Shown here piece by piece: positions 2,215 to 38,087 of a stretch of 64,000 bases of DNA. This DNA comes from Centroscyllium fabricii. Taxonomy: Eukaryota. Within the stretch, counting starts at the first letter, position 1; the number at the start of each line of letters is the position of its first letter. A model generated the notes under the pieces. That model had not been told where the DNA came from and did no database searches. It saw only the letters and a program-made list of their open reading frames with translations. The position numbers were made by a program, and so were the translations under genes. The stretch lies in NCBI GenBank assembly GCA_051313645.2, contig JBNRSN020000011.1, positions 109,492,001 through 109,556,000 on the forward strand, written 5' to 3'.

Positions 2215-2929
2215 CAGGTTGTGCACCGAAAATCCGTGACCCGAAACGCCGGCAGCTTCAGTCTGCCGGAACAAATTGCCCCGACTGCACTGCGCATGCG
2301 CAAGATGGCAGCCGCGAATGCGGCTTCAGCGAATGATCTGCGCATGCGCCGCCGAACGGCGAGCGCATGCGCAGATCATTCAAAACGGCTGCCGGGTGTT
2401 TTGAATGATCTGCGCATGCGTCGCTGGACGGCTAGCACATGCGCAGATCATCAAAACGGCCGCCGGACGAGCCGGGCCTTCCGTGGCGTCAGGGTGCGGC
2501 AGCTCGACTACCATCCCTGAAACCCTTAAACGAAGGGGAACGGAGGTGAAGATGCACAAATGCCCACAGTCAAAGGAACCGACAGTTAAGGGACAGAAGT
2601 GGGTGGTTGTGGGGTTGGTGGAGATTACCAAGATAGGGAGGGGTGAGCCCGAAGCGATTTAAACACGGAGGTTAGAATTTTAAGTGTGAGCATTGGTGAA
2701 CTTGGTGCCAATGCAGGTCAGCCATGGACAAACAAGGATGCAAACAGCAGAGTTCTGGATGAGATGATCTAATATTTTGAATGTTCGGCAGCCATTTCCA
2801 ATGTGCGCATGCGCGTGGCCATTTTGAATGGTGCGCGCATGCGCACTGACAGACTTCATTCTGCCGGTTTTTTCCCTTCCCCGGCACGGGCCTGGTCCCG
2901 CCCGTGCCGGATTTCCGGTGCGCAACCTG
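2215..2929 (+). mobile_element. Tc1/mariner-pogo-type MITE, copy 1 (GCGCATGCGC-rich, with L2-like internal insert)
   Basis: TA|CAGGTTGTGCACCGAAAATCCG...CGGATTTCCGGTGCGCAACCTG|TA: terminal inverted repeats with TA TSD. Confidence 0.88.
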
Positions 2930-3142
2930 TATTTTACTAGAAGGCAATGAGGTAAGAACAGTTCATCAATGTTAAGTGACTCATTTGATAAACACACTTC
3001 AACCTTGTGGAGTGTACAACTAAAGAAAGTCTTTCTAGCTGCCTTTAGCACACCAAGAAATGTGAAAATTAAAATGATTGGGATGGAAACTACAGGAAAC
3101 ATGAACCAGTGTCAATTCAGTTGAATCTTATGAAATCAAATA

Positions 3143-3674
3143 CAGGTTGCGCACCGGAAATCTGGCACAGGCGGGACCAGGCCCGTGCCGGGAAAGTGAA
3201 AAAACCGGCAGAATGAAGTTGGTCAGTGCGCATGCGCGCACCATGCAAAATGGCTGTGCGCATGCGCACAACATTGGAAATGGCCACCGAACGTCTTTGT
3301 GGAGTCTCAGCTGACGGCCAGCAGGCTGCTCCGGGAAACGCGCGCTTCACCTTGGCGGGTGCTCGGGACTCGCACATTCAAAACGCGGCGCGAGCCGCCG
3401 CGCCCTGACGCCACGGAAGGTCCGGCGGCCGTTTTGAATGATCTGCGCATGCGCTAGCCGTCCGGCGACACATGCGCAGATCATTCAAAACTCCCGGCAG
3501 CCGTTTTGAATGATCTGCGCATGTGCTCGCCATTCGGCGGCGCATGTGCAGATCATTCGCCGAAGCCGCGATCGCGGCTGCCATCTTGCGCATGCGCAGT
3601 GCAGTCGGGGCAATTTGTTCCGGCAGACTGAAGCTGCCGGCGTTTTGGGTCACGGATTTTCGGTGCACAACCTG
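3143..3674 (-). mobile_element. Same MITE family, copy 2, inverted relative to copy 1
   Basis: TA|CAGGTTGCGCACCGGAAATCTG...CGGATTTTCGGTGCACAACCTG|TA. Arms are near-identical reverse complements of copy 1. Confidence 0.88.
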
Positions 3675-3779
3675 TAGTTGCAAGCACCAATTATAATCAA
3701 CATTAGATTCAATACTATAATGACATTTATTGCTCACACAAAATGCAGCTGCATTGCTCTGATGAAATGTATTTTACAG

Positions 3780-5906
3780 GGGCAAGTGGAGCATGTGGGA
3801 AACAGTGGTCATAATATCAGTGTTAGAATGGTTATGGAAAAGGACAAGGAAGAATCAAGCATAAAAATACTTAACTAGAGAAGGGTCAACTTTAGTAAGT
3901 TGGAAAGGGATCTGGCCCAGGTGGATTAGAATTAAAAATGGTCGGCAAAAATAGTAATTGAGCAATGGGAGGCCTTCAAAGAGGAGATTGTTCAGGTACA
4001 GAATAGACATTCCCAGGAGGCAAAGAAAGGCATCCAAAGTTAGAGCTCCCTGGATTACTACATATAGAGATTAAAATGAGTCAGAAAAAGGAGGTTTATG
4101 AAAAATGTAAGTTGCATAATACTGTTGAGAACCAAGCTGAATACAGAAACTGCAAAGATAGTCTAAAAAAAGGGAATAAGAGGGGCAAAGAGTATGAGAA
4201 TAGATTAGCAGCTAACATAATGGGGAAACCAAAAGTCTTTTGTAAACATATAAATAGTAACCGAGTGGGGTCGACCAGGGACCAAGAAGGAGATATTTTT
4301 GTGGAGACAGAGGAGATGACAGATACTAAATGGTAATTTAGCATCAGTCTTCGCTATTGAAGAGGATGCTGCCAATGTAGCAGTAAAGGAGGGGGTAGTA
4401 GCGATACTGGGCTGCACAGGATGCATCCTAGGTTACTGAAGGAAGTAAGGGTGGAAACTGCAGACGCTCTGGCCACAATCTTCCAATCCTTAGATATGGG
4501 GTTGGTGCCAGAGCACTAGACGATTGCAAGCATTACACCCCTGCTTAAACAATGAGGGGGGAGATAAACCCAGCAACTACAGGCCAGTCAGTCCAATGTC
4601 AGTGGTGGGGAAAACTTGTCAAGACAATAATCCAGGACAAAATTAAGGGGCATTTGGAAAAGTATGGGCTGATAAATGAAAGTCAGAATGGATTTGTTAA
4701 AGGCAAATAATGTTTGACTAACTTGATTGAGTTCTTTGATGAAGTGACGGAGAGGTTTGATGAGGGTAATGTGGTTGATGTTGTGAATATGGACTTTCAA
4801 AAGGCATCTGACAAAGTAACACAGAATAGACTTGTTAGCAAAATTAAAGCCCTTGGGATTAAAGGGACAGTGCCGCATGAAATTGGCCAAGGGACAGAAA
4901 TCAGAGTAGTGGTGAATAGCTGTTTTCCCAGACTGGAGAGAAGCATACAGTGGTGTTCCCCAGGGGTTGATATTAAAACCACTGCTCTGACATATATTAA
5001 TGACCTGGACTTGGGTATGCAGGGCATAATCTCAAAGTTTGCAAGTGACACAAAACTCAAATGAGGAGGATAGCAACGGACTTCAGGAGGACATACATAG
5101 ACTGGTGAAATGGTCAGACATGTGGCAGATGAAATTTAACGCAGAGAAATGTAAAGTGATGCATTCTGGTAGGTAGAACAAGGAGAGGAAATATAAACTA
5201 AATGGTACAATTTTAAAGGGGGTGCATGTACACAAATCTTTGAAGATAGCAGTACAAGTTGAGAAGGCTGTTAAAAATCATATGGGATCCTTGGCTTTAT
5301 CAATAAAGGTACAGAGTACAAAAGCAAAAACGTGACGCTAAACTTTTATAAAACACTGGCTAGGCCTCAGCTGGAGTAGAGTGTTGAATTCTGAGCACCA
5401 CACTTCAGGAAGGATGTCAAAGCCTTGGAGAGACTGCAGAAGAGATTTACTAGAATGGTACCAGGGATGAGGGACTTCAGTTACGTGGAGAGACTGGAGA
5501 AGCTGGGGTTATTCTCCTTCGAGAAGAGAAGATTATTCGATGGAGGTGTTCAAAATCATGAACTTGAGAGTAAATAAGGAGAAACTGTTTCTAGTGGCAG
5601 GAGGGTCAGGAACCAGATGAGACAGATTTAAGGTGATTGGCAAAAGAACCAGAGGCGACATGAGGAAACATTTTTCTTTACACAGCACGTTGTTCTGATC
5701 TGGAATGCATAGGGTGGCGGAAGCAGATTTAATAGTAACTTTCAAAAGGGAACTGGATAAATACTTGAAGGATAAAAATTTACAGGGCTATGGGGAAAGA
5801 GCAGAAGAGTGGGGCTAATTCCATAGCTCTACCATAGAGCCAGCACAGGCATGATGAGGCAAATGGCTTCCTTCTGTGCTGTATCATTCGATGATTCTAT
5901 GATTCT
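3780..5906 (+). mobile_element. Degenerate CR1 LINE (ORF2 fragment with 3' tail)
   Basis: RT motifs LTNLIEFFDEVT, MDFQKASDKV, ISKFASDTKL with frameshifts. Tail ...tcgatgattctatgattc. Confidence 0.9.
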
Positions 5907-6294
5907 TTTGATGATCAAAATCTAAATTAGCTGAAAATGAAACAATTAAATGTCACATTAATGCAACATTTCATCAAATGTGCATTTTATACCGTTTGAC
6001 ACCTACGTTTCAACAATCGAAGTACAGTTCCATTGGCCCATAAACATTAAAAGAATATTAAAATGTTACTTTTTGGTTAGCCGAGCGTCTGACGCACAGC
6101 AAACTCATGACCGAGCAACATCATCAACAGCAACAATGGGCTGAACTGGCCTCCTTCTATAATGTATTTTCTAGAATTCTAAACTTCTCCAAACCAAATT
6201 ATTGAGAACTGCACACAAATAGTTTCTGTTCATTTAATACAGAATGCACACCCTATTCCCACTTATCAAAGGCCAGAGAACTTAGAAAAATATT

Positions 6295-7257
6295 GGGCCC
6301 TGTTTTCCTGTGCTCCAGAGGAGCTGCACACTCACGAAGGGGGTTCAGAAATGCCTCGTGGGTGTGCAGCACGGGTGATTCCCACGAAAGTCAATTTCCT
6401 GTGCTGATGGGCAAGGACCTTCAGCTTCCAACGCAGGAAGACCTTGCACTGACGATTTCCTGTAAGAACTGGTCAAAATGCGTGTGTAATTACGTGGGCA
6501 AGTCTCTCTGCAGCTGCCCATTTAGAAATCAGTCGTTGATGGTGCTGCAGTGCGTTCAGAACGGGAGAAACACGTTGAAAAGCTTTAAAAAGTAAGTTTT
6601 TTGTTGATTCCTTTGGTGATGTGTGTGTGTGGTGTTTCAACTTTTAAATTGAAGTGTTTTTTTTTTCTGAATTGAAAAAAAACAGGAGTGATTCTAAAGT
6701 TTATTTTAAAATAAAAAAAAAAAAGGGTTTTTAACTGTTTTTGCAGCCTTTTCTTTTTTAAACACTGGTTTTTGATTCCTATGTAAAAATTAACTAGCTG
6801 CTGTCTTCGGAGATAAGTTAAAACCTCATGGATCTGGAACTTTCACACAGCACTTCCGTTTTAAACAAAAGAAAAACTAAAAATCGTTGCTAATTCATCC
6901 AATACATCAGAAAATGATGAGGTAAAAAAATATTTAACAGTTAAAAAATTTTAAACAGAAAACGATCAAAACTAAGCAATCATACCTACAGATCTTTTCA
7001 GCTGCTGAGCCTTTGCTTTCTGCTAGATTCTGTGCGTTCTGTGGGGGCGTGGTCAGAAAAAGCGGACCTCAGTGGGCGTGGCTTGGTCACAGCCCACGCA
7101 CAAAGCTCAACGCAGCAGCAGCAGCCAGAACCCTACGCAGCCCACGAAGACGGCAAATCTAACAGGAAATCGACGGGAAAAAAAAAAACGTGCGCGTGCG
7201 CCGCGGGTGTGCAGGAGCGCGCACCCGCAGCAAACGGAGCACAGGAAAACAGGGCCC
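6295..7257. mobile_element. Non-autonomous DNA transposon, PIF/Harbinger-like
   Basis: Perfect 22-bp TIR GGGCCCTGTTTTCCTGTGCTCC / GGAGCACAGGAAAACAGGGCCC. 3-bp direct repeat ATT on both sides. GC-rich ends, AT-rich core, no ORF. Confidence 0.85.
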
Positions 7258-7762
7258 ATTGGCAATGCTAAGGGACCCCCGCAAGAATGTACATGGGGGA
7301 CTGCTGAAGTTTAACTGGCTAAACCAAGCCTTTTACCAGCTAGAACGTTGCGTGGGTATAACACCAGCTCCTCTGGATTCCATCAACCAACCAGGTTGGC
7401 TGATCAATCCTCAATAGCTCTCTGATGCACTGCAGACATGCCTGGTTTAGGTATTGAATTACAGTCTGCCAGAGAGGATCAATCTGGTTCCAAACTTGCA
7501 TGGGCATCATCCTGAAGCCAACTCAATCCCAAAACTAACACAGCTAATCTTCCTTTTCCCCCTCTCCGAAGGAGGATAATTACCAGATGACACTCCAAGA
7601 CCATCATCATGATGGCAGCCTACCCATCACTGTTAGACATTCAATACAAAGGCTCAATGAGTATACAGGAAACTCTCTTAACCGGCACCTAAATATACAG
7701 AAATCTCTCAACCAGCAAAATTCTGGAGTAGGTTCAGGTAGGTTTTACTATATATTAGTGGG

Positions 7763-7885
7763 TGTGTAACCAGGGTTCCTGGACCTGTTGCCATGTAACA
7801 GGGACTCCTGGATCTGTGGCCGTGTAACCAGGACTCCTGCACAGGTGCCGTGTAACCGGGACTCCTGCACCTGTGGCCGTGTACA
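7763..7885. repeat. Minisatellite, ~29-bp unit, about 4 copies
   Basis: Repeats of gtgtaacc(a/g)ggactcctg(g/c)acctgtggcc. Confidence 0.8.
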
Positions 7886-8596
7886 GGGCTCTCATACCTT
7901 GGTAAGTATACCTCTCTGTAATGTGGACTTTTTGATCAACCGGCACCATGCCGGCCCCGGATAAAAAAAAAAGTTTCCTGTACTCTTACATGGATTTTGG
8001 AGTAGGAGTATACAACCCAGATCAAATCCAAGAATCAGACACTTGGTTCTATTGCATCCAGGTTAAAAAAAAATAAAGACTGCATGAGGAACAAGGTCAA
8101 AAACTTTATGAAAACCTATAAAGAATCATACAGCACAGAAAGAGGCCCTTCAGCCCATCGCGTCCGGGCCGGCCATCAAGCCCTGCCTATTCTAATCCCA
8201 TTTTCTAGCATTTGGTCCGTAGCCTTGTATGCTATAGCATTTAAAGTGCTCATCTAAATCTAAATACAATGCAAGAAGTTTTCCCAATCTTATATAAAGG
8301 CCACACCGTGCCTCAGATAGCTTAGAAGAACAAATTCTAGCAAACTCCTTGCTGATTACACTGCATCCTCAAATACAGCTGACACATATGCTGTGACAAC
8401 CCAAAGAACTGACTTAAGAGCTACTATCAGTGAGATTCCTTGGTGATTTTCATTCTCACTAGCATCCTCTTCTTGTGAATAGAAACCACAATTGTCGTAT
8501 CAATGCCTCAAATCATTTTCCCTACCCTTAAAGGGACAACGAGTTGGCAGCTCTGCAAATTAATTTTGCAGAATGGGAACCAGCAGGAGCAAATCA

Positions 8597-11246
8597 AAGG
8601 CCCAACCAGTCCTCATCCACCACCACCCTCCTCCGCCTGGCTGAACTTGATCTCACATTGAACAACTTCTCCTTTGGCTGAACTTGTTCTCACATTGAAC
8701 AACTTCTCCTTTGACTCCACTCATTTCCTCTAAATCAAAGGTGTTGCTATGGGTACCCGCATGGGTCCTAGCTATGCCTGCCTTTTCGTGGGATATGTGG
8801 AATGCTCTTTGTTCCAGTCCTACTCGGGTCCCCTCCCTCACCTCTTTTTCCGGTATATTGATGGCTATCAATGCCGTCTCGTGCTCTCTCCCTGAACTGG
8901 AAAATTTCATTCACTTTGCTTCCAATTTCCACCCTTCATAGAGTCATAGAGTTTTACAGCACAGAAAGAGGCCCTTCGGCCCATCACGTCCATGCCGGCC
9001 ATCAAGCCCTGTCTATTCTAATCCCATTTTCCTGCATTTGGTCCGTGGCCTTGTATGCTATGGCACTTCAAGTGCTCATCCAAATGATTCTTGAATGTGG
9101 TGAGGGTTCCTGCCTCTACCACCCTTTCAGGCAGTGAGTTCCAGATTCCAACCACCCTCTGGGTGAAAAGGTTCTTCCTCAAATCGCCTCTAAACCTCCC
9201 GCCTCTTGCCTTGAAACTATGTCCCCTTGTTATTGACCCCTCTACCAAGGGAAAATGTTGCTTTCCATCTACCCTATCTATGCCCCTCATAATTTTGTAC
9301 ACCTCAATCAGATCCCCCCGCCAGCCTTCTCTGCTCCAAGGAAAACAACCCCAGCCTGCCCAGTCTTTATTCATAGCTGAAGCGTTCCAGCCCAGGTAAC
9401 ATCCTGGTGAATCTCCTCTGCACCCTCGCCAAAGCAATCACTTCCTTCCTACAGTGTGGCGACCAGAACTGCACACAGTACTCCAGCTGTGGCCTTACCA
9501 GCGCTTTGTACAGCTCCATCATAACCTCCCTGCTCTTATATTCTATGCCTCGGCTAATGAAGGCATGTATCCCATATGCCTTTTTAACCACCTTATCTAC
9601 CTGTCCTGCTGCCTTCACTCACCTTCACATGGTCCATCTCTGGCTCTTCCCTTCTTCGACTTCTCCGTCTCCATCTCTGGGGATAGGTTATTGACAAACA
9701 TTCATTGCAAGCCCACTGATTCCCACTAGACTTCCTCCCACCCCGCCTCCTGTACGGACTCTATTCCATTCTCCCAGCTTCTCCGTCTCTGCCGCAACTG
9801 CTCGGATAATGCCACCTTCCAGACCAGCGCTGGTAAGGCCACAGCTGGAGTACTGTGTGCAGTTCTGGTCGCCACACTGTAGGAAGGAAGTGATTGCTTT
9901 GGCGAGGGTGCAGAGGAGATTCACCAGGATGTTACCTGGGCTGGAGCGCTTCAGCTATGAATAAAGACTGGGCAGGCTGGGGTTGTTTTCCTTGGAGCAG
10001 AGAAGGCTGGGGGGGATCTGATTGAGGTTGGGAGACCAAATGCAGATTGGGTGAGCGCTTTGCGGAACACCTCCGTTCAGTCCGTAAGGGGGACACCGAG
10101 CTCCCGGTGGCCTGTCACTTTAATTCTCCACGTCGTCCTTTTTCCTCAACCGAGGATTCCCCTCTACTGTGGTTGACATGGCCCTCGACTGTGTCCGTTC
10201 TATCTCCTGCACTTCTGCCCTCACCCCTGCCCCTCCCTCACGGAACCACGATAGAGTTCCCCTTGTCCTCACCTATCACCCCATCAGCCTCCACATTCAA
10301 CGGATCATCCTCCGCCACCTCCGGCGTGATCCCACCACCAAATGCATCTTCCCCCATCTCCCCTTTCGGCATTCCGCAGGGACCGCTCCCTCGGCGACAT
10401 CCTAGTCCACTCCTCTACCACCCCCAGCACCCCTTTCCCCGGCACCTTCCCGTGCAAGCGCAGGAGATGCAACACATCGCCCCTTCCCACTATCCAGGGC
10501 CCCAAGCACTCGTTCCAGGTGAAGCAGCGATTTACGTGTACTTCCTGCAATCTAGTATACTGTATTCGCTGCTCACGATGTGGTCTCCTCTACATTGGGG
10601 AGACCAAATGCAGATTGGGAGACCAAATGCAGATTGGGTGACCGCTTTGCGGAACACCTCCGTTCAGTCCGTAAGGGGGACACCGAGCTCCCGGTGGCCT
10701 GTCACTTTAATTCTCCACTCCAATTCAGACCTCACCGTCTGCGGCCTCTTGCATTGTTCCACGGAAGCTCAGCGTAAGCTCGAGGAACAGCACCTCATCT
10801 TTCGCTTAGGCACTCGACAGCCCTCTGGACTAAACATAGAGTTCAACAATTTCAGATCATAACCTTGGCTCCTATCACATTTATATATACACATACACAC
10901 AAACTGTATATATTTTCTCGTTTTTTAAATCCACACTTTCGGCTGGACTATTTTTCTCTTCTCTCTGCCAGAGCCATTCACAGTTCATCCAGAGCCATCC
11001 TGTGTTTCTTGAATATCTCTTAAAGTCTCTCAATGTCTCTTAATCTTAATTTATCCTGTCGCTGATCTTCTCTTTTGTTCTTTCACCCCCTCCCCCTTTC
11101 CCCAGGCCCTACTTGCTTTAAAATCTATCCCCTCTCCTGTTTTTTCTAGTTCCGACGAAAGGTCTTCGAACTGAAACGTTAACTCGGTTTCTCTCTCTGC
11201 CGATGCTGCCTGGCCTGCTGAGTTTCTCCAGCATTTTCTGTTATTT
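8597..11246 (+). mobile_element. Penelope-like retroelement (RT end plus GIY-YIG endonuclease), degenerate, interrupted by CR1 and a templated insertion
   Basis: GVAMGTRMGPSYACLFVGYVE (RT) and FTCTSCNLVYCIRCSRCGLLYIGETK...GDRFAEHLRSV (GIY-YIG). Hammerhead-like motif near the 3' end. 12-bp TSD AGGAGCAAATCA at 8585-8596 and 11247-11258. Confidence 0.88.
8937..9615 (-). mobile_element. 5'-truncated CR1 LINE nested in the Penelope element
   Basis: LYKALVRPQLEYCVQFWSPH and FTQRVVGIWNSLP. Tail catagagtcatagag at the left end. Confidence 0.9.
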
Positions 11247-15900: not shown

Positions 15901-16039
15901 GTACAGTGGAGGAGCAGAAAGATTTAGGGGTACATGTACAGAAATTGAAAGCTATTGAAATTTTTTTTCAAAAGGCTAATGGAATATTAGCCTTTATCTC
16001 CAGGGGAATGGAATGAAAAGCGGTGGAAGTTATGCTACA

Positions 16040-18728: not shown

Positions 18729-19146
18729 AATCTTACAGCAAAGCTGCAGACCTCCCTTCCATCTAGATTCAATGGGGCTGAATTTCTGCATGGGTTGTAT
18801 TGCTCGTCCACCATTCGGTTTGCTGGAAACGCTGGAAAAATATGACAGTGATACTGAAGCTTTTCCAGGGTTTCCGTGGCTCTTCCGCCGACATTGCGAC
18901 AGACAAGTGGGAGATCCCCGTGGAAATACACTTCTAAAGTTACTAAACTCAAGCCCTGCCTCTCAATTTTGGTGAGCTAGTCTGAATTTAATTTGCTATT
19001 ATTCCAGCTAAGCGATACATATCAGAGGGAATTTTTAAAAAAGCAGTGTGTTAATGCTCAGTTATTGTACTCCTACCAGTCAATTAGACAGCATCAAAAT
19101 AGTCAAACAAATCACTGCTGAGTACCATTGGCAAGGTTATCAGGTA

Positions 19147-19501
19147 CAGGTTAGGCACTGTTAATCCGGCACCCGAAAAACCGGCAGTTTCAGCCGTCCG
19201 GCAAAGATTTCCCCGACAGCCCTGCGCATGCGCAAAATGGCCGCCGTGTGTGGCTGCGCATGCCCGGGCCTCCCCGACTGGTCTGAGCATGCGCAATATG
19301 GCCGCCGCGCTTGGCTGCACATGCCCGGGCCTCACTGAACGATTGATGCTTCGGCGCGCGCATGCGCAGACCATTCAAAATTTTGCGGTGGCCATTTTGA
19401 ATGATCTGCGCATGCGCCGCCAAAGCTTCAATCATTCGGCATTTTCAAAAATTCGGCACGGTGCTGGCCCCAACCGTGCCAAATTAACGAAGCTCAACCT
19501 G
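19147..19501. mobile_element. GCGCATGCGC-rich MITE, copy 3 (more diverged)
   Basis: TA|CAGGTTAGGCACTGTTAAT...ATTAACGAAGCTCAACCTG|TA. Lies 66 bp into the intron after the exon at 19568-19671. Confidence 0.8.
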
Positions 19502-19567
19502 TACTGCATTAACAAAAGAATTTTTTTTTTTTTTTTTTTTTATATAAACGACTTCACAACAGCTTAC

Positions 19568-26450: not shown

Positions 26451-26954
26451 TGAGAAGTGATGACATTTTGCGATAGGAGCTGACAGTGACATTGTCCAAG
26501 TCTTAACTCTTGCCGTTATTGTCATTATCAATCTATTTGGGCTAACTGGCTGCTTCTAGAAGATTTTTCACAAAGATGGGTTAGGGGTGAAAATATTGTT
26601 AAAACTCTGCAGTAGTGTGGCACAATATCCATTTCATTATCAGACTGCAAACCTTTCAGGCTACTACGGTAAATGTAAAATTCTGCTGGACGCAGCATCT
26701 TGATTTCTATTGAAATAATCCAATTGTTACAAGTATCTTTCAGACAATATTGATTATATGTACTTTCCATACTAAAAGTTATAAATCTAAGTCTTCCAAG
26801 TAATGGTAACTAGCTACTGTCTAGTAATACGTCACCAGGAATTTTTTCCCAACCACTCTTTCTTGCAAGGTATCGAAAAGGAATAAAACAAGTCCTTTAA
26901 CTGACCATCTGGAATTCAAATCCAACATGAGTTTAAATAGCAATAAAAACTTAC

Positions 26955-27046
26955 ACTGTCGCTTACATCAGTCGACTTCCAACCTTTTAACTGCATTTGA
27001 GATATAGGAATTTGTAGCTCATTTTCTAAAATTTGCTTGATAGCAC
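26955..27046 (-). CDS. FAF1: FAF1 internal coding exon (UBL1; probably exon 5)
   Basis: ttttaatcttacAG|GT GCT ATC...GAC AGT|GTAAGT. 92 bp, (G)AIKQILENELQIPISQMQLKGWKSTDVSDS. Completes the split Gly codon of the previous exon. Too short for the ORF track. Confidence 0.95.
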
Positions 27047-27229
27047 CTGTAAGATTAAAAAACCATATTAATTCCAGCAAATATTCTAAGTATCATGGTA
27101 ATGTTGCAACTACTTAAACAAAACTCTCCTCTCCAATAATACATGATGTATACATATTTGCTACTCAGTACCGTTATCAAACAAGACCCATAATTTCCAT
27201 TCAAAATACAGCTCACAAAATAACTGGTA

Positions 27230-28883
27230 TTTATACAAAGAGGTGGGTTTTTTGGAGGGTTTTAAAATAAAAAGGGGAAGTAAATACCAGAATGTGGAGC
27301 CTAGGCAGCTGAAGGTACAGCCGTGTACAGTAGGGTGACAGGAGGGGGAGATGCACAAGAGGTCGGAGCGAGAGGAATGAAAGGTTTGGGAGAGGGGAAG
27401 TCACACTGGAATAAGTTACAGGGATAGGGAGAAGAGAGGCCATTGATGGATTTAAACAAAAGGATGAACATTTTAAATGAGGCACTGGGGGAACTGGGAG
27501 CCAATGCAGATCAGCGAGCACAGGAGTGATGGGAAAACAGAACTTGGTACAGAATAGGATAGGAGTGGCAGAGCGTTGAATGAGCCAAAATTTACAGTAT
27601 GAGGACGGAATGCAGGCCAAGAAAGCATTACAAGAGTCGATTCTGTAGCTGGCCAAGTCATCGATGATGGTTCCTGCAGCAGACAGACTGAGAGAAGGGC
27701 CCAGGTGGGTGATATTACGGAGGTAGAAGGTTGTGGCCTTTGAAGACGACGATATAGGGTCAGAAACTCAGCTTTCACTCCAAGGTTTTGAACAGTCTGA
27801 TTCAGCCTGAAAGTGACTGGAGGGGGGATAGAACTGGGTCCAACACGACAAATTCATTCTTCCCAATGTTTGCTTGGAAGAAATTACAGCTCATTCAAGA
27901 CTGAATGTTGGACAAAGCATTCTGACAACACTGAGGCAGTTGCGGGGGGGGGGGGGGGGGTGGTAAAGAGTTGGGGTGTCATCAGCATATGTCTGGAAGC
28001 TGACCCCATATCTGCAAATGTGTTGCCAAGGGACAACATTCAGATGAGGAAGTGGAAGCGACCAAGGATGGTTCCATCGAGACGTCCTGAGGTAAAGGTA
28101 GGCAGCTGGGAAGGTAACCCATGGCAACAAATGCTCTTGCAACAATAGGATATCTAAGAATGGAACCAAGGGAGGTCTGTTCCACCAAGTCGAACAGACT
28201 GCAGGCTTTGAAGAATGCTGATGTGGCTAAACGTGTTAAAAACTGTAGAGTGGTCGATGTGGACAAAGAGATAATCCCCCATAGTCCCAGTCAGAGAATG
28301 TTGTTAGTCACGTTGGTTAGGGCCATTGTGGTGCTGTGGTAAGGGCAAAGACCCGATTAGCGGGTTCCAATCAGGGAGTTGGGGGAGGTACAAGTAGAGA
28401 TCTGAGAGGCGACAGACATTCAAGGACTTGAGAGACACGGGAGGTTGGAGATGGGGCTGCAGTTTGCATGGATAGAGGGATCGAACGTAGCTTTTTTTTT
28501 TTAAATGGGGTTGATAACTAGTTGCAGTTTTGAAAGAGGTGGACAATGGCCAAGGAGAAGGAACCATTTAGAATGTCAGCCAGCTAGGAAGGGAAGTTGG
28601 TCAGCAGTGTAGTGGGAGTGGAGTCGAAAGAACAGAAGGTGGGTCTCAAGGATGAAATGAGCTTTGAGGGGGCATGGTGAAAATGTAAAAATACTGGAGA
28701 GAGACAGGGGGGGGGGGGGGCGGGTCAGGGCAAGGTTAAGACGGAGCCTGGGGATGGTTTGGTTTTGTGGACAATGGAAAAGTGAAACAGCAGCGGCAAC
28801 CGAACATCTGTTCTTTTAAATCTTGGTGACAAAGTAGTCCATGAGTTCTTTGCACTCGTTGTTCGAGGTGATGATGCAAGGGG
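27230..28883 (-). mobile_element. Degenerate L2 LINE
   Basis: GVSFQTYADDT, RIDSCNAFLA, ITPVLADLHWLPV. Confidence 0.82.
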
Positions 28884-30328
28884 CAGGGTGCTACAAAACA
28901 TTTTTTTTTCACTTGCCCAGTTGGGCAAGTGGATTTCTGAAACACTTACCCGAACACAAATTTTACTTGCCCGAAATTATTAAAGAAATAAATAAAGATA
29001 TTACACTTTTATTAAAATGCTTCAATATAAAGCCAGAGATTGTGATTGTGCCTTTAGTTGCATTGGCCTGGTTTCTGCCCCTCTCTGCCAGGGTCTCTCT
29101 CTCTCTCTCTCTCTCTCTACTCTGCACATTCTTCCCTCATTTACCAAACTTTCTGTGAAGCCTCCGCAGGCCGCGGGCTCCCTCACTCTCTCTGCCTACA
29201 TTTCTCGAGCAGCCGCTCCAGTTTTTTCTCTCGCCCTCAGCGGGTCGACGGCACCGACCCACTCTTGCCGCGCGCCACCAGCCCGCTCCACCTAACCCGA
29301 CTGCTGCCCCGTCCCGATTGACACGCCGCCTCCTACAATCCCCGCCGCACCGCCCAGCCCCGCCGGCCATTTCGTACCCGTCTCCAGGGCGGGATCCACC
29401 CACCTGTGCCCGTGGCCTCGACCATTGAGCGGGCAAGCGGTTTTGTCGTGCCCTGGACTGTCCCTGGATTCGGTCTCTGGGTGTCAGTGTCTCTGAACCT
29501 CACAAAGGGATTGAACCCGGCGCTCGGACACTCCCAGCTGCCTGGAAGAGGAGGAACACCAGCGCCTCTCAAAGGGTCCCAACCCGAAACATCGACTCCA
29601 CACCTCTCTCCCCCCCGATGCTGCCTGGCCGGGCGAGCCCCCCGCCATGCTGCCGGGCTCGCCGAGTCGCCCCCCCTACACCGCGATGCAGCCGGGCGCG
29701 CCAAGTCACTACCCCCCGGATGCTGCCGGGCTCACCGAGTCGCTCCCCCCCTCGATGCAGCCGGGCCTGCCGAGTCGCTACCCCCCGGATGCTGCCGGGC
29801 CTGCTGAGTCGCCCCCCCCCCCCGCCCCGATGCTGCCGGGCCCGCGAGCCCCTCACCCCGATGATGCCGGGCCCACCGAGTCGCTACCCCCCGGATGCTG
29901 CCGGGCCCGCAGAGTCGCCCCCCCCCCGGATGCTGCCGGGCCTGCCGAGCCCCCCTGGGTCCCCTCTGCTGCAGACGCAGTGAAGTGAAAGACAGGTCGG
30001 ATCCAGTGAAACGCCGGCCTCACTTCACTGCTGGTTCGAACGAGCTATGATTGGCCGAGCACGGGCAGGGGGCGGGGCGCAGGGCGGAGCGTGAGAAAAT
30101 TGCCGGGCTGTGATTGGCCAAGTTCGGGCAGGGCAGATTTGGAAACCCATCGGCCGAGGCGTGCCCGGCTCCCCGCCAATCCGCACCTGCCTCCAAGGTG
30201 GCATCCACCTACCCGCTCCCATGGCCTCGATCACTTGCCCAGTCGGGCAAGTAAGATTTTGATTTACTTGCCCGGCGGCGCATTTTACTTGCCCCGGGCA
30301 ATCGGGTTTGTCGGTTTGTCGCGCCCTG
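28884..30328. mobile_element. Non-autonomous hAT-like DNA transposon with GC-rich minisatellite
   Basis: TIR CAGGGTGCTACAAA / TTTGTCGCGCCCTG. Flanking direct repeat (G)CAAGGGG of 7-8 bp. Repeated subterminal ACTTGCCC motifs at both ends. Confidence 0.82.
29612..29956. repeat. GC-rich minisatellite, ~30-bp unit GATGCTGCCGGGCCTGCCGAGTCGC-C(n)
   Basis: About 10 variable tandem units inside the hAT-like element. Confidence 0.88.
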
Positions 30329-32418
30329 CAAGGGGCCAGGAAAGAGAGATCGGTTTTATGAGGCTGTTGGTAATGGGGGGTGGGGGGGGGGGAAAGAGAA
30401 ACCTCAGGGGCTATTCATGCTCTGCACAATGATTCGATAGCAGGTGGTTTTGCCAGAGAGCCAACCAGTCCCACCATATTACTAAAAAGTTCTACATTAA
30501 TCAGAACTTTAATGCAGAACTTCTCTCCAAGCTCAAAGTTTAATACAGTCCTTCTAGACATTTGTTATTTGAATATAAATTGTTTTGCTTTTAATGTCTG
30601 TTTGAGTTTTAACAAATGAAAGAAACACAGATCATGCAAGAATTTAGAATACATTACAAACCAGAAGAGAAAAAAACCTGACCAAATTCAGTGGATAGAT
30701 TCATTTATCGCACATATAACTTGCTGTAAACATACTCTGAATACAATAGCCTCATTTTTACAGGAAAATCACCTTAGAAAAAGTTTAAGAGTACGTGCTT
30801 TAACAATTGACATTTCACACCATTTCAAGGATTTACTTTCGTTACTCATCAAAATGGTTTTCCTGTTGTTAGTCCTGTCAATGCTTCTTTAATGTTGGAA
30901 ATATAATTTGGGCGGAGATGGGACTTAAGCCCAGCAAGTCCAGGCACATCATCTGGGAGTTGTAAACACAGATGCATGCTGGCACATCCAATCTGATATA
31001 TTCTTACATCTTTTCAGCTGGCTGAGCGAAACCTCTGGGAATTCCCATGAACCCAAGCCACAGGCTTCTCAGACAGAAAAAGTCATACCAAATGTTATTG
31101 TATAGTAAAGTTTAATTTTATTGCTGCAAGTAAAGTTTAATTTTATTGCTGCAAGTTTTAAAATTTTATTTGCATTATCATGTTAAAACTTTATTTCTCG
31201 TACTAAGTGAAACTGCTAATGAATGATCAAGAATGGGTTTTCAGAAAATATATGAAAGTTTGTATTTATGAATGTACAAGAGGACATGTAAAGACCAGGT
31301 AGTCCATCAAGCCGGTCGTATATGATCATGGTGTAACTTCTGCACAATATTCTTGCCCCCTCCCCTCTTACGCAAGCAAACTCCTCAGGTGAAAAAGCCG
31401 TAGACCAATCTTGGAAATTCCTGTCAAACCTCCAAAGCTGACCAAACAAGTTCCAGGAAACCATGATGACTGGGAGACATTCCCAATACCCATGAACCTT
31501 CCATATGCAGTTATGTCTGCCACACTCAGAAACCTGGCCAACTCTCTGAACACTTGCAGCAGACAGTCACAACATGCGCTGCAACATGTCCCAGAAGTTA
31601 ATGATCCACTGCAAAAAGTACCTCCAAACAAGTTCTACGCTTACGTAACTTATACTTGTGTCCTCTACTCCTCCCTAACCTATCTAGCTCATACAGCCTA
31701 TTAATATGGACCATGTCTAATCCTTTCATTATTTTAACGACTGCAAGAAAATTTGATCGAAGTTCTTCCTTGTGTAAAAATTCCTGGCCTCACATTTCCC
31801 ATTCCATCTCGTTCAAACCTCAAACAAAAAGCAAGGGACCTAGTACTGAGCCCTGCGGAACCCACTGGAAACAGCCTTCCAGTCACAAAGTCGACCATTA
31901 CCCTTTGCTTCCTGCCACCAAACCACTTGCCACTTTCCCTTGGATCCCATGGGATTTTACTATTCTGACCAGACTGCCATGTGGGACCATGTCAAAAGCC
32001 TTGCTAAAATCCATGCAGACTACATCAAACGCATTACCCTCATCGACCCTCCTTGTTACCTCCTCCAAAAATTCAATCAAGTTAGTCAGACACGACTTTC
32101 TCAACAAATCCATGCTGACTGTCCTGGATTAATCTGCCTTTCTAAATGACGATTAATATTGTCCCTCAGAATTTTTTCCAATAATTTGCCCACCACCGAG
32201 GTTAGACTGACTGATCTGCAATTACTCAGTCTAACCCTTTCTCCCTCTTTAAACAATGGTACAACGTTAGCAATCATTCAGTCCTCCAGCACCACACCTC
32301 TAGCCAGAGAGGATTGAAAAATTATGGTCAGAGTCTCCGCTATTCCCTCTTTTGCTACTCTTAACAGCCTGGGATACATTTAATCTGAACCTGGCAATTT
32401 ATCTGTTTTGAATTATAC

Positions 32419-32701
32419 TGTGGGGAACAGTAGTTTCCCACTCTTTAAATATTAAGAAACGGAGGAAATCAGCGGAGCAAATTCAAACAAGTCTTTATTC
32501 AACTCTATCCACGCAGAACTAACTAGAAAACGTCGCAAAAATGCAAAGCATCGTGGGGCTCGAGTGACAGCCCGCCGGACCAGTCAAGGACAGTAACCGT
32601 TGATCAAACTTATCCAATGGGGAAACGGGGGCGGGACCACTCGGGAAATATGGATTCTGTGTCCGAGACCACCGGATTGTCTCTCGAGTGGCTACGCGAC
32701 A
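32419..32701 (-). repeat. Gypsy 3' LTR, preceded on the minus strand by PPT GAGGATTCTGGGGGGTGTG
   Basis: Direct repeat of 36553-36829. AATAAA present on the minus strand. Confidence 0.92.
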
Positions 32702-32718
32702 CACACCCCCCAGAATCC

Positions 32719-35700
32719 TCATACACATGGTACGTCAACCTCCGAGGAGGCATGATAAGGCGGCCGCAACGAGTGCGTTAGGCCGCCGGTGCAGGAGGGG
32801 ACACCGGGGAGTCGTGGACAGGACTGGGAGATAACTGCGCCACAGGAGCAAAAGGAGGCGAAACTGGGGGAGAAACTGCAACCGGAGCTGTACCCGGGGG
32901 CGTATATACTGTGGGACCCGCCGGGGGTACGCTCGGGGAAAAAGAAGCTCTCCTGGTGCGGGGCCAGGGAAGGCTGTTCCTGCAAGGTGGGGTCCAAGTG
33001 GGCCGGTTTAAGACAGTCGATAGACACGCGGTCCTGTCGGCCCCCAACCGCCAGGAGAAAAGACTTGTCACCAGCCTCCAGCACCCTGAAAGGGCCAGTG
33101 TATAGCGCCTGCAAGGGGGTTCTGTGGGCGTCACGACACACAAAGACAAATTGTGCCCGACGGAGCTCAGTAGGTATGTGGGACGACCGGGCACCATGCC
33201 GAGAAGTGGGTACAGGGAGGAAACGGTGCGCGGTGTCGTTGTGCCGGGCGAGTTGCTCACCGGCTGACCAAGGGTCGGTGGTGGAGGGAAGGAACTCTCC
33301 TGGAACACACAAAGGCTGTCCAAAAACGAGTTCGGCGGATGAAACGCCGAGGTCGTCCATGGGCGCAGATCGCAACCCCAGCAAAACCCAAGGAAGCCTG
33401 TCCAACCAATTGGCGTCAACCAAGCGAGCTCGGAGTGAAGCTTTAAGGGCGCGGTGGAAGCGTTCGCAAATGCCATTAGCCTGCGGGTGGTACACAGTTG
33501 TGCAGTGCACTTGCGTACCCAGGCCAGTGGCAACTGCGCTCCAGAGCAGAGAGGTAAACTGCGGGCCCCTGTCGGAAGTGATGTCAGATGGTACCCCAAA
33601 CCGGGCCACACAAAAAAAAATGAAGGCACGTGCCACGTCGGCCGTAGTGGTGGAAGAAACAGGTACGACCTCTGGCCACCTAGTGGTGCGGTCTACGACA
33701 GTAAGGAGATGGGTGAAACCCCGCGATGGGGGCAATGGGCCCACCAGGTCAACATGGACATGATCAAAGCGCTGCTCGGGCACCGGAAACTTTTGCAAGG
33801 GAGCTTTGGTATGCTGATGGACCTTGGCGCGCTGACAGTCCTTCTGTACATTTTTAGGCAGGCCCAGCCAAACGAATTTGGCGGACAAAAGCTTCTGAGA
33901 AGCCCGCATTCCCGTGTGTGAGAGGCCATGGACCAACTCGAAAATACGCCTGCGCCAGGAGGTAAGCACCAAGGGCCTAAGGTGGAGACGGACACGTCAC
34001 ACAGAAGGGTCGTGCCGGCGGCCAGAAAATGGACGTCTGCTAGAGTCAGGCTGGTGGACGCGGCACGAAGAGCCTGCAGCTCAGTGTCCACTCACTGGGC
34101 GCATGCCATTTCAGCGTAATCAACACCAATGTGGACTGCATAGAGGGAAGGACGGGACAGGCAGTCCGCAACGACATTATCTTTAACGGACACGTGGCGA
34201 ATATCCGTCGTAAACTCAGAAATGAAATTCAGGTGGCGCTGTTGGCGACCTGACCAAGGCTCTGAGACTTTGGACATGGCAAAAATGAGGGGTCTATGGT
34301 CCACGTAGGCCGTAAAAGGACGGCCTTCTAAAACGAAAATACCACACCGCGAGAAGAGCTAGCAGTTCTCAATCGAACGTGCTATACGAGAGCTCATTTT
34401 TCCGCAGTTGGCGGCTAAAAAAGGCGAGGGGCTATCAGGCACAGTCAACCCACTGCTGCTGAACGGCGCCAATGGCATGATCCGAGGCATCCGTCGTGAG
34501 CGACAGTGGAGCATCCGGAATGGGATAGGTAAAAAGGGTGGCTTCAGCCAAAGCCGATTTACCGAGGCGAAAAGCATCAACAATATCGGCCGAACACTGA
34601 AGACTATCCTTGCCCGTCATGCCCCTGGTAGCTTCGTACAGGGGGCGCATGATGGAGGCTGCCTTGGGAATGAATCGGTGATAAAAAAATTAACCATTCC
34701 CAGGAATTCCTGTAGTGACCTGACCGAGTTAGGCTGGGGAAAGTCCACGACCGCCTGCACCTTAGAGCACAAAGGGATAGCTCCCGCCGGGGAGATAGAA
34801 AATCAATTTCAGGGCGGCCAAATTGGCATTTAATTGGGTTAACAATTAGACCGTGATGGGCCAATCTCTGAGAGAGAGCGCGCAGGTGCATTACATGTTG
34901 AGATTCGTTAGCACTAGCAACCAAAATATCGTCAAGATATACAAACAAAAGTCCGAGTCCCGAAGGACAGAGTCTATCAACTGTTGGAAAACCTGCGCCG
35001 CGTTCTTTAACCCAAAGGGCATGCGCAGGAATTCAAGAAGTCCGAATGGTGTAATAACGGCTGTCTTTTGGATGTCAACCGGATGGACCGGGACCTGGTG
35101 ATACCCTCGGACGAGGTCGACTTTCAAAAAAATGGTAGTGCCCGCCAAATGGGCCGAAAAGTCTTGAATATGTGGCACCGGGTATCTGTCCGGCGTGGTG
35201 GTGTCGTTAAGGCGCCGGTTGTCACCACACGGCTGCCAGCCGCCTCCAGGCTTGGGGATGATGTGGAGTGGGGACGACCACGGGCTGTTGGACGGTCAAA
35301 TGATCACTAACTTCTCCATGGCCGAGAATTCCTGCTTGGCCACCGCCATCTTTGTAGGGTCGAGGCGTGTTTGGCCGACACATCGGAAAAGGTTGGCTGC
35401 ATGATGGCCGGGAACTCTGCCCGGAGGAGAGCAGGAGCTTATGAGGGGTTGGCCATCACTTCGCTGGCAGGGGAACGATGCGAAGGTAGATGCATCCATC
35501 AGACGTCTGCCCCGGACATCCACGAGCAGGCCGTGGGCACACAGGAAATCCGCGCCCAGCAATGGACGTGCTATATTGGCCGTGACAAAATCCCAGGCAA
35601 ATCGTTGGTCACCCAGTCGGATTTCCTCTCACCTCTTACCGAACGTGGCTATTGCTGCGCCATTCACTGCCACGAGGAGTGGGCCGCTGCGGCCGGAACA

Positions 35701-36538
35701 TCGATCGGAGCGCATGGCCGGTAAGATGCCGAGCTGGGCCCCTGTGTCGCAGAGGAATTGCTGCCCGGCCAGAGAGTCTGTAACATACAGCAGCTGACCT
35801 GCTGTGCCCTTGTCGTTAGCAGCGGCTGGTCCTTGGCGGCGATGCTGGCTCGGAGCATTGGGTTTGGGTTGGGCCACCTTGCCGTCGAAGGAACAAGGTG
35901 GTCGGCAGCGGTGGGCCTTCGGGCCGGAACGTGCATGATAATAGCAAAGCTCTGGCTGTGGTCGAGGCGTTGGTTGCGGCATAGGGGCTGGGGGCCTTGT
36001 AGTTGCGCATGTGGCGGGCGTACACAGGCAGACGCGGTCCGCGGCGGTGGCCAAATCGGCATAGTCCCCGCCTTTAATGTTCGCTAATGCGGATTGCACT
36101 GGCTGCGGAAGCAGGTTGATGAAGAGTGCCCGGAACAAAGGGCAGTCCTTGTGGTCGCCAAGCAGGGCGAGCATACGGTTCATCAAGCGTGTGGGCGTGG
36201 AATCACTGAGAACCGGGAGTTCGAGAAGTTGCCGGGCCCGCACGGCCTCCGGTAGGTCGTGGGCCTGAAACAGTCGCTTCTTGACGGCAACGTACCTGTC
36301 GGCGGGTCCCGGAGCAGGTTGACAATGTCGGCGGCAACGTGGCTTGGCAGGGCTGCAACGACGAGGAGATAGCGGTCCTTATCGTGAGTGATGCGTCTTA
36401 ATCGAACTGTGCCTCCGTTTGAATGAACCAAGCGGCTGCTTGGTGTTCCCAAAAGGCAGGGAGACTGGTAGTCGACGGCCGTTCGTGTTGGTCAGCCACG
36501 GCGGGCGTGTTCGGGTCAGCGTTCGCTGCGTCTGACAT
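32719..36538 (-). pseudogene. Gypsy gag-pol, disrupted
   Basis: Gag LPAFWEHQAAAWFIQTEAQF and CYYHARSGPKAHRCRPPC; protease FLCDTGA; RT TPFGLLEFLRMPFGLKNAAQVFQ and YLDDILVAS; RNase H TTDASDHAIGAV and DHRPL; integrase HVHVDLVGPLP...TSDRGPQF...GICERFHR. Confidence 0.92.
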
Positions 36539-36550
36539 TCGGGGTCACCA
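36539..36550 (-). other. Primer-binding site complementary to tRNA-Trp
   Basis: TGGTGACCCCGA 2 nt after the 5' LTR. The putative gag ATG follows at 36538. Confidence 0.85.
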
Positions 36551-36552
36551 AT

Positions 36553-36829
36553 TGTGGGGAACAGTAGTTTCCCACTCTTTAAATATTAAGAAACGGAGGA
36601 AAACAGCGGAGCAAATTCAAACAAGTCTTTATTCAACTCTATCCATGCAGAACTAACTAGAAAATGTCGTGAAAACACAAAGCATCATGGGGCTCTTGAG
36701 TGACAGCCCTCCGGATCAGTCAGGGACCGTAACCGCTGATCCAATCGGGAAATGGGGGCAGGACCAATCGGGAAATGTGGATTCTGTGTCCCAGAGAGAC
36801 CGGATTGTCTCTCGAGTGGCTACGCTACA
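36553..36829 (-). repeat. Gypsy 5' LTR
   Basis: Direct repeat of 32419-32701, followed on the minus strand by AT plus PBS. Confidence 0.92.
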
Positions 36830-37556
36830 ATACTAAACCCTGTAATATTTCCTCTCATCTATTATTTCACAGTCCTCCTCCTGAACTACAATGTCTGCAT
36901 CGTCCCTTTTTTTTGTGAAGGCAGGCGCAAAATATTCATTAAGAACCACACTCACGTCTTACGCCTCAATACACAGGTTACCTTTTTGGGCTCTATTAGA
37001 CCCTACTCTTTCTTTAGTTATTCGCTCTTTATGTATTTATAAAATATCTTTGGGTTCTCCTTGATTTTAACTTGTCAATATTTTTTGCTTTCCTAATATC
37101 CTTTTTAATTTCACCACTGCACTTTCTATACTCCTCCAGGTTTTCTGTAGTATTTAACTCTCAGTATGTAGCCTTATCCTACCCAATCTGACCCTTGACA
37201 TCCAGGGGGCTCTAGATTTGTGATTCCCTCCCTTTTTCTTTGTGGGAACATATTTGCTCTGAACCTTCACTATCTCCTCCTTGAACGCCTCCCACTGCTC
37301 TGACGTTGACCTACATTTAAGTAGCTGCTTCCAGTCCACTTTTGTTAAATCACACCTCAGCTTAGTAAAATTGGCATTTCCCCAATTGAGGAGAACTTTT
37401 ACTCCTGGGCTATCGATGTCCTTTTCCATAACTATGCTAAATCTAACTGAATGTTGTTCACTACCACCAAAATGCTTTCCCACTGAAATCCTTCCACCTG
37501 CCCAGCTTCATTCCCTAAAACTTAGCCCAGAACCGCCTTGTTGGGCTTGCTACATA

Positions 37557-38087
37557 CAGGTTGAGCACCGTTAATCCGTGTCCCTAATAGCCGGCAGCTT
37601 CAGTCTGCCGGCACAAATTGCCCCGACTGCACTGCGCATGCGCAAAATGGCAGCCCCCATCGTGGCTTCAGCGAATGATCTGCGCATGCGCCGAGCGCAT
37701 GCGCAGATCATTCAAAACAGCTGCGGGTGTTTTGAATGATCTGCGCATGCGTCACCGGACGGTTAGCGCATGCGCAGATAATTCAATACGGCCGCCCGTT
37801 ATTTTCTCGACAGCTGAGCCCCGTGACTGAGGCGGACAGTCACTAGGCAACAGCTGTCAGCCTGAGTCCGGCTCGGCGGCAGCAGCAACCCGAAAGGCGA
37901 TGGAGAGGGAACGCGGACCTGTGCTCGATCTGCGCATGCGCGCGCCAGCCAATCGCAATGCTGCGCGCATGCGCGCGGCCATTTTGAATGGCGCGCATGC
38001 GCAGTGTCCAAACTCGTCCTCCCGGTTTTTTCCATTTCCCGGCACGGGCCTGGTCCCGCCCGTGGCGGATTAACGGTGCTCAACCTG
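37557..38087 (+). mobile_element. GCGCATGCGC-rich MITE, copy 4
   Basis: TA|CAGGTTGAGCACCGTTAATCCG...CGGATTAACGGTGCTCAACCTG|TA. Perfect 22-bp TIR, inserted in CR1. Confidence 0.92.

What the first reader, a model, noticed from the sequence alone, without database searches (positions are those of the whole stretch)
2215..38087. MITE family built from NRF1/YY1-like motif arrays with swappable central cargo (four copies)
Seen: four elements (2215-2929, 3143-3674, 19147-19501, 37557-38087) with TA TSDs and CAGGTT-type TIRs. Each has multiple GCGCATGCGC palindromes, several adjacent to AAnATGGC/GCCATnTT, and many intact CpGs in an AT-rich intron. Copies 1, 2 and 4 share both arms but have unrelated centres (~2500-2780, ~3290-3400, ~37800-37925). 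Known: TGCGCATGCGCA is the NRF1 site, AAnATGGC is the YY1 core, and Pack-type DNA elements capture host sequence. Inference: a non-autonomous, capture-prone family that spreads housekeeping-promoter-like modules. The arrays may keep it unmethylated or act as transposase sites. I cannot tell whether it is already in a repeat library.
Basis: partly seen in the sequence, partly recalled or inferred. Interest (0 to 1): 0.72.

Follow-up and report, generated by a model that had tools for sequence, protein, structure and literature searches.

The report
Mini-transposons mass-copying host gene starts
These four short elements belong to a family of tens of thousands of jumping-DNA copies that has picked up the promoter and first exon of ordinary host genes and copied those pieces to many new places, where they appear to decay as likely methylated passengers rather than work as new promoters.

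Summary
The four elements are real: TA duplications, CAGGTT-type TIRs, and all 19 GCGCATGCGC sites of the window. They belong to a pogo/Tigger-like MITE family with 91,321 exact end matches in a 7.2-Gb genome. Centres are not swapped copy by copy: each window copy is one of at least 40 full-length near-identical copies. Host origin is shown for one sister subfamily, which carries the head-to-head promoter and first exons of NPRL2 and a cytochrome b561 gene; I found the arm-free donor locus and 117 matches to the intact exon frame. Copy 2 carries a deleted CENPW-like first exon (donor not found), copy 1 keeps the start of that piece plus other DNA, copy 3 has no cargo, and copy 4's source is unknown. 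Cargoes are nested, so capture was serial. CpG transitions run 4.6-9.8 times non-CpG ones, like a Tigger control (5.2-6.7), so protection from methylation is not supported. No matching transposase was found. This is a multicopy Pack-TIR system far larger than the four cases reported from 100 animal genomes. The scan noted this family before on other DNA of this genome.

The parts
2213..2931 (+). Copy 1, 715-bp MITE (2215-2929) with TA duplications
   Evidence: 40 of 40 scored genome places are full length at 96-100% identity, self included
2468..2506 (+). Copy 1: remnant of the upstream part of the CENPW-like cargo
   Evidence: 39 bp at 87% to L111 cargo and 30 bp at 93% to copy 2 centre
2509..2781 (+). 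Copy 1: second cargo; about 2601-2724 is a fragment of an old dispersed repeat
   Evidence: About 73% to arm-free dispersed copies in L149, L042 and window about 27,330-27,540; fixed in the subfamily; exact donor not sought
3141..3676 (-). Copy 2, 532-bp MITE (3143-3674) with TA duplications
   Evidence: 40 of 40 scored places are full length or nearly so at 96-100%, self included
3293..3420 (-). Copy 2 centre: internally deleted derivative of a CENPW-like upstream region and first coding exon; start codon lost
   Evidence: 110 bp at 89% to L111 cargo, alignment; L111 peptide matches Pfam CENP-W E 0.002, below the curated cut-off, and PDB CENP-W E 4e-4
19145..19503 (+). Copy 3, 355-bp cargo-free MITE (19147-19501), older subfamily
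   Evidence: No non-arm run, but it was itself part of the arm library; no hit to flanking host DNA; 39 other scored places at 91-94%
37555..38089 (+). Copy 4, 531-bp MITE (37557-38087), very young subfamily, perfect 22-bp TIR
   Evidence: 40 of 40 scored places full length at 99-100%, self included; single strand folds at z -14.2 against shuffles
37806..37924 (+). Copy 4 centre: deletion derivative of a longer CpG-rich cargo (L074 and L279 types); host source unknown
   Evidence: 115 bp at 98% to L074 and 128 bp at 79% to L279; donor not found

Best explanation
The four elements are copies of a very abundant non-coding, TA-flanked MITE family with pogo/Tigger-like ends whose subfamilies carry fixed pieces of host DNA, including gene promoters and first exons, that were likely picked up by template switching during repair and then spread by a transposase supplied in trans. 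Shown: ends, copy numbers, fixed multicopy centres, one donor locus, nested cargoes and CpG decay. Inferred: a break or stalled fork inside the strongly self-complementary element is repaired by copying a few hundred bases from another locus, often a CpG-island gene start, joined by a few bases of microhomology; the chimera keeps both ends, transposes and founds a subfamily; later captures, SINE insertions and deletions overwrite part of the old cargo. The GCGCATGCGC arrays are internally duplicated and inverted subterminal modules. Once inserted, copies are methylated in the germ line and decay neutrally.
For: 91,321 exact matches to TA plus 22-nt TIR, reversed control 0. 65 of 71 sampled elements have TA at both ends. 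Left and right ends align with the 5' and 3' ends of this genome's Tigger-type transposon over about 70 nt; that family encodes HTH_Tnp_Tc5 and DDE_1. Full-length subfamilies for copies 1-4. Donor L265:1191-1566 has no arms or TIR; copies match it from 1191 (33 of 48 hits) to 1565 (35 of 48) and then run into arm sequence. The same two breakpoints appear as loose ends in public contigs. Its plus-strand exon matches human NPRL2, E 4e-10 (peptide of copy L251; same Pfam hit for donor and copy). Its minus-strand exon is followed in the genome by an in-frame next exon about 9.6 kb away and a cytochrome b561 exon, Pfam E 1.2e-29. Shared cargo segments link c4-L074-L279-L312-L309-L172 and c2-L111-c1-L123. 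CpG/non-CpG transition ratio 4.6-9.8 in five sets, Tigger control 5.2 and 6.7. Non-CpG changes are even over codon positions in 16 intact NPRL2-exon copies (6/336, 9/352, 7/304) and in the b561 exon of 45 copies.
Against: No transposase with the same TIR was found in 100 fetched pogo loci (30 + 20 from DDE_1, 30 + 20 from HTH_Tnp_Tc5, some of the last overlapping), so the mobilising enzyme is inferred. A donor was found for only one of the three cargoes for which a donor-specific search was run; none is shown for the three window centres. Further NPRL2 exons were not located within 50 kb downstream of the donor (region has gaps and the search was by short motifs). CpGs inside the motif decay at 0.38-0.96 of the rate of other CpGs of the same element, so some constraint on the motif is not excluded. 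With all 45 copies the NPRL2 exon showed more third-position changes (63/845 against 30/931 and 28/942); this vanished when only intact-frame copies were used. 30 of 71 sampled elements carry none of seven test cargoes, and several have minisatellite centres.
Confidence: 0.82

Rival explanations
1. The NRF1/YY1-like arrays are functional: they recruit host factors, keep copies open or unmethylated, and the family spreads working housekeeping-type promoters.
For: Motif density is far above chance. Motif CpGs decay somewhat more slowly than other CpGs in all five informative sets. Real promoter DNA is carried. Young copies keep 104 of 105 motifs intact.
Against: Whole-element CpG decay equals the Tigger control; motif CpGs still mutate about 3-7 times faster than non-CpG C/G; older subfamilies keep only 57 of 120 and 38 of 84 motifs. 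In mouse ES cells DNA methylation restricts NRF1 binding (PMC7605266, passages). The copy 1 and copy 2 sets were picked by likeness to the query, which lowers apparent decay.
Confidence: 0.1
2. The centres are remnants of a longer autonomous parent or later insertions of other mobile elements, not captured host DNA.
For: Some centres are later insertions: SINE-like pieces in L078, L079, L080 and L137 and LTR-like pieces in L063; minisatellite centres need no capture. Copy 4's centre has no known source.
Against: None of the 80 sampled loci or the window gave a tblastn hit to the Tigger transposase. NPRL2, b561 and CENP-W matches are to cellular genes, and the donor is arm-free.
Confidence: 0.06
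3. Capture happens copy by copy after insertion (transposition-independent gap filling), as for most animal Pack-TIRs.
For: This is the usual route in animals (PMC8277862, section 7 and passages). 40 of 48 clusters in my sample are singletons.
Against: Three singletons that were searched (L099, L122, L100) each returned 40 of 40 scored places; in the 90 loci fetched the cargo was joined to arm sequence on both sides in 89 and on one side in 1. Copies lie on many contigs far from the donor.
Confidence: 0.02

Closest known systems
Multicopy Pack-TIRs of animals, e.g. frog Pack-hAT-N8_XT with the CAPSL 5' UTR and Drosophila Ssk-FB4 (Tan et al. 2021, PMC8277862; seen: passages, section 7 whole, one supplement search)
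   Same: TIR element with both ends and TSD carrying a piece of a host gene, often GC-rich 5' DNA; copies far from the donor; several rounds of transposition.
   Different: That survey found 370 Pack-TIRs in 100 genomes, only four multicopy, the frog example in three copies, and none in elephant shark. Here one cargo has 117 intact-frame matches plus deleted versions, others are extrapolated to thousands, and cargoes are nested by serial capture.
Rice Pack-MULEs (PMC5861414; seen: start of abstract and passages)
   Same: About 3,000 elements that acquired gene sequence, with preference for GC-rich DNA, some multicopy, raising local GC where they land.
   Different: Plant Mutator superfamily with 8-11 bp TSD; here TA TSD, short TIR, pogo-like ends, vertebrate host, and far more copies per cargo.
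pogo superfamily, Tigger-type elements and their MITEs (Gao et al. 2020, PMC7386202; seen: passages)
   Same: TA TSD, TIR under 40 bp, asymmetric subterminal ends that align with this genome's 2.38-kb Tigger-type family.
   Different: TIR bases after CAGG differ from all three pogo families whose ends I saw; no coding capacity; internal palindromic motif arrays and host cargo.

Membership tests
MITE (non-autonomous TIR element) | Short, with TIRs and TSD | tested here: met
   299-1,680 bp in 71 sampled elements, 65 of 71 with TA at both ends
MITE (non-autonomous TIR element) | High copy number in uniform subfamilies, no transposase | tested here: met
   91,321 end matches; no tblastn hit to the Tigger transposase in sampled elements
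pogo superfamily derivative | TA TSD and TIR of 40 bp or less | tested here: met
pogo superfamily derivative | End sequence homologous to a pogo transposon | tested here: met
   Left and right ends align with Tigger-type 5' and 3' ends, mean column identity 64% over 85 columns; judged by eye, no shuffle control
pogo superfamily derivative | A DDxD pogo transposase gene flanked by the same TIR | tested here: inconclusive
   Three pogo families with other TIRs were seen; only the best 150 of 1,715 and 150 of 1,017 candidates were listed and 100 loci fetched
Pack-TIR | Internal non-transposon sequence with an identifiable parental locus | tested here: met
   Met for the NPRL2/b561 subfamily; donor differs from the copies' majority sequence at 22 of 364 columns
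Pack-TIR | Parental locus for the centres of the window's own copies | tested here: inconclusive
   Copy 2 centre is CENPW-like by protein match, but one donor pattern found nothing; copy 4 donor not found; copy 1 second cargo donor not sought
Multicopy Pack-TIR | Transposition after capture: many distant copies, each with its own flanks | tested here: met
Unmethylated, CpG-island-like active promoter | CpGs spared from methylation-driven decay | tested here: not met
   CpG/non-CpG transition ratio 4.6-9.8, and 6.1 in the captured promoter itself; donor keeps 28 of 33 CpGs, copies 23.4 on average
Unmethylated, CpG-island-like active promoter | NRF1/YY1 occupancy, open chromatin, transcription start | not testable with these tools
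   Needs ChIP, ATAC, CAGE or reporters; motif names are recalled, no matrix scan was run
Known library entry (Dfam/Repbase) | Match to a curated consensus | not testable with these tools
   No repeat library is offered

The most novel reading that the evidence does not exclude
The NRF1/YY1-like arrays steer capture: while a new copy is still unmethylated, host factors bind its arms and bring it close to housekeeping promoters in the germ line, so repair copies gene starts rather than random DNA. The family would then be a promoter-homing capture machine that has seeded tens of thousands of latent promoter and first-exon modules, some of which may be used by host genes.
Probability: 0.15. Interest if true: 0.82.

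Novelty: new variant of a known kind. Interest (0 to 1): 0.6.

Why it matters
In animals, gene capture by cut-and-paste transposons is reported as rare and almost always single-copy. Here one vertebrate MITE family has done it repeatedly and multiplied the products hundreds to likely thousands of times, leaving a nested record of successive captures with donors that can be located to the base. That makes the capture mechanism (template switching, breakpoint homology, bias for CpG-island gene starts) testable on large numbers. It also matters in practice: thousands of decaying copies of first exons and promoters will confuse gene annotation, read mapping and methylation studies in this lineage.

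Tried and rejected
Autonomous partner: top DDE_1 hits are one 2.38-kb Tigger-type family about 95% alike with a related but different TIR; a second family with GC-rich internal repeats (29 of 30 HTH loci) and a third inserted in zinc-finger-like repeats also have other ends. MITE ends inside those loci are insertions. Searching with centres alone returns only element copies. An apparent ATG plus splice donor in L099 was rejected: the subfamily majority has a CpG there. The protein database search with the b561 first exon found nothing at E 0.01, nor did Pfam or PDB name it; its identity rests on the downstream exons. The ESM Atlas was not available for it. One CENPW donor pattern gave 0 hits. 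Two arm-excluding patterns for the copy 4 lineage gave 13 and 5 hits; of these I read the flanks of 9 (L306-309, L312-314, L317, L320), all element variants or copies cut by LTR insertions, and did not read the other 9 beyond TIR positions or the listing. Donors of these two centres remain open. 14 of 15 and 2 of 2 further cargo ORFs had no Pfam hit below E 0.01 (PDB). No RNA holder was listed for L172. Laying contigs on copy 4 showed no clean empty-site joint among the rows displayed. One 2,353-nt contig of a run guessed to be RNA begins with the NPRL2 exon and stops matching at the exon end; this fits a spliced mRNA but the run type is a guess, so it is not counted. Literature: six searches aimed at this family or its kind (listings and abstract starts) found no description of it; subscription journals and repeat libraries were not searched.
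Full report
Observation. The four elements are present at the stated coordinates, each between TA dinucleotides, with TIRs matching at 20 of 22, 19 of 22, 19 of 26 and 22 of 22 positions. They hold all 19 GCGCATGCGC sites of the window; resampling gives at most 2 per element in 500 trials. They are GC- and CpG-rich against flanks of GC 0.40. The arms are built of duplicated and inverted modules, including a 72-nt unit, and copy 4 folds far better than shuffles (z -14.2). I could not confirm that the region is an intron: the 30 of 60 long ORFs scanned gave only retroelement-type domains or nothing. The repeat landscape looks like that of a shark or ray; this is recalled, and earlier scan notes say the same.

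Family size. A pattern of TA plus the 22-nt TIR has 91,321 exact matches in the 7.2-Gb genome, reversed control 0. The first 100 listed hits belong to 89 elements, which extrapolates to roughly 80,000 elements with at least one exact end. I fetched the first 80 of those 89 sites; 70 had a partner TIR within 2.85 kb, and one locus held a second element, giving 71 elements of 299-1,680 bp. With the four window copies they form 48 clusters at 85% identity and 90% coverage; the largest, 13, is the copy 4 type. This sample comes from 24 Mb of one contig and favours elements with an intact end.

Centres are subfamily traits. Searching the genome with each window copy returns 40 of 40 scored places at full or nearly full length: 96-100% for copies 1 and 2, 99-100% for copy 4 and 91-94% for copy 3 apart from self. 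Three centres seen once in the sample were also high-copy: 40 of 40 places each, and arms adjoin the cargo on both sides in 89 of 90 loci fetched. So cargo is not exchanged copy by copy; each capture founded a subfamily.

Host origin, shown. The L122 subfamily's centre encodes on one strand a peptide matching the N-terminus of human NPRL2 (E 4e-10) and on the other strand a second first exon. A pattern for the intact NPRL2 frame has 117 matches; the 8 loci fetched all carry at least the right arm. Requiring a non-arm base downstream left 9 hits, 8 running into arm sequence and one not. That locus, L265, has no TIR or motif; copies match it from 1191 to 1565 and then switch to arms. The last four bases at the right junction fit both donor and arm. 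In the genome the second exon is followed in frame by a next exon about 9.6 kb away and by an exon matching eukaryotic cytochrome b561 at E 1.2e-29. The name CYB561D2 and its head-to-head position with NPRL2 in human are recalled; one search shows only co-mention in listings. Further NPRL2 exons were not found within 50 kb by short motifs. The same breakpoints appear as loose ends in public contigs from three studies and two organism codes.

The window's own centres. An earlier scan note suggested CENPW, and I tested it. The L111 cargo peptide matches CENP-W in Pfam (E 0.002, under the cut-off) and PDB (E 4e-4). Copy 2's centre is a version of it with an internal deletion and a lost start codon; copy 1 keeps only its first 30-39 bp and continues with other DNA that includes an old dispersed repeat about 73% like arm-free copies. 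The CENPW donor was not found. Copy 4's centre is a shortened form of a CpG-rich cargo seen longer in L074 and L279; its source is unknown. Copy 3 has arms only. In the sample, 9 of 71 elements carry CENPW-lineage DNA (3 of them only the upstream remnant), 27 of 71 the copy 4 lineage cargo, 1 of 71 the NPRL2 cargo, and 30 of 71 none of seven test cargoes. Scaled up, the first two would be about 10,000 and 30,000 copies; these are extrapolations.

Serial capture. Shared segments link L172, L309, L312, L279, L074 and copy 4, and link copy 2, L111, copy 1 and L123. L309-type elements hold a new piece of about 690 bp inside the older L172 cargo, flanked by a short direct duplication. The order of events is my reading of nesting, not a tree. 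Not all cargo is promoter DNA: L306 carries an AT-rich exon-like ORF ending at a splice donor, and several subfamilies have minisatellite centres or later SINE and LTR insertions.

Methylation and function. Against subfamily majority sequences, CpG transitions exceed non-CpG C/G transitions 9.8-, 8.8-, 4.6-, 7.7- and 5.2-fold in five sets; the 15 closest copy 4 relatives are too young to score (1 of 1,680). The Tigger control gives 5.2 and 6.7, and the captured promoter itself 6.1; the donor keeps 28 of 33 CpGs, copies 23.4 on average. Germ-line methylation is inferred from this, not measured. Motif CpGs decay at 0.38-0.96 of the rate of other CpGs, which leaves room for weak constraint. Methylation restricts NRF1 binding in mouse ES cells (PMC7605266, passages). 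Changes in captured exons are even across codon positions in intact-frame copies; the larger mixed set showed a third-position excess for NPRL2 that I put down to alignment around a shared deletion. Elements with the same TIR but no motif also multiplied (L081 cluster), so the arrays are not needed for transposition.

Mobilising enzyme. The ends align with the 5' and 3' ends of the genome's Tigger-type family in the same left-right order, and TA TSD with short TIR fits pogo (PMC7386202, passages). None of three pogo families whose ends I saw has the same TIR, so the partner is unknown.

Comparison and verdict. This works like, and for the NPRL2/b561 subfamily meets the definition of, a multicopy Pack-TIR. 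Tan et al. found only four multicopy cases among 370 Pack-TIRs in 100 animal genomes and none in elephant shark (PMC8277862). Rice Pack-MULEs show the same GC-rich bias (PMC5861414, passages). Six literature searches found no description of this family; repeat libraries could not be checked. Earlier notes of this scan describe the same family elsewhere in this genome; the NPRL2/b561 donor was reached before I opened them, and 'cyb561d2' occurs in none. Verdict: a real, new large-scale variant of a known kind; the capture reading holds, the protected-promoter reading does not.

Noticed in passing
L320:1540-1800 and L323 (= L303): Two separate LTR-retroelement insertions sit at almost the same base inside the L279-type element; several other copies (L061, L063, L089, L092, L116, L306) are also cut by LTR-like insertions. 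A target preference was not tested.
   Followed up: no
L233, L234, L235 (about 1045-4060): Three loci hold a pogo ORF of 505-619 aa lying inside 84-bp-period repeats that look like a C2H2 zinc-finger exon (recalled); probably one insertion multiplied with a gene cluster.
   Followed up: partly
L236 (ORF of 510 aa), L374, L376: Pogo-type ORFs unlike the transposon families and without their own TIRs where checked (L236); candidates for domesticated TIGD-like genes.
   Followed up: no
L306:843-1079: Captured AT-rich exon-like ORF of 79 aa ending at a splice donor; no Pfam hit under E 0.01 and no PDB hit.
   Followed up: partly
L309:1156-1332, L307, L314, L317: A cargo of about 690 bp with an ATG-started ORF of unknown gene, inserted into older cargo with a short direct duplication.
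   Followed up: partly
L062, L064, L087, L102, L104, L118, L125: Subfamilies whose centres are GC-rich minisatellite arrays; a second pogo family (L329-L358) has similar-looking GC-rich repeats upstream of its ORF.
   Followed up: no
L150:2040-2350 and L157:1330-2232: The MITE left arm is fused to nearly the same point of the Tigger transposase gene in two loci, with loss of the right arm; L157 ends in an A-run.
   Followed up: partly
L236:3170-3577, L240:910-1250, L133: An older sister group with a variant TIR but the same arms, so the family is larger than the pattern count.
   Followed up: no
window 32,722-36,378 (-): Integrase and reverse-transcriptase domains of an LTR retroelement; elsewhere the window is rich in CR1-like LINE fragments.
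   Followed up: no
window 2929-3143: Copies 1 and 2 lie 213 bp apart in inverted orientation and form a 1.46-kb inverted pair that could move or recombine as one unit.
   Followed up: no
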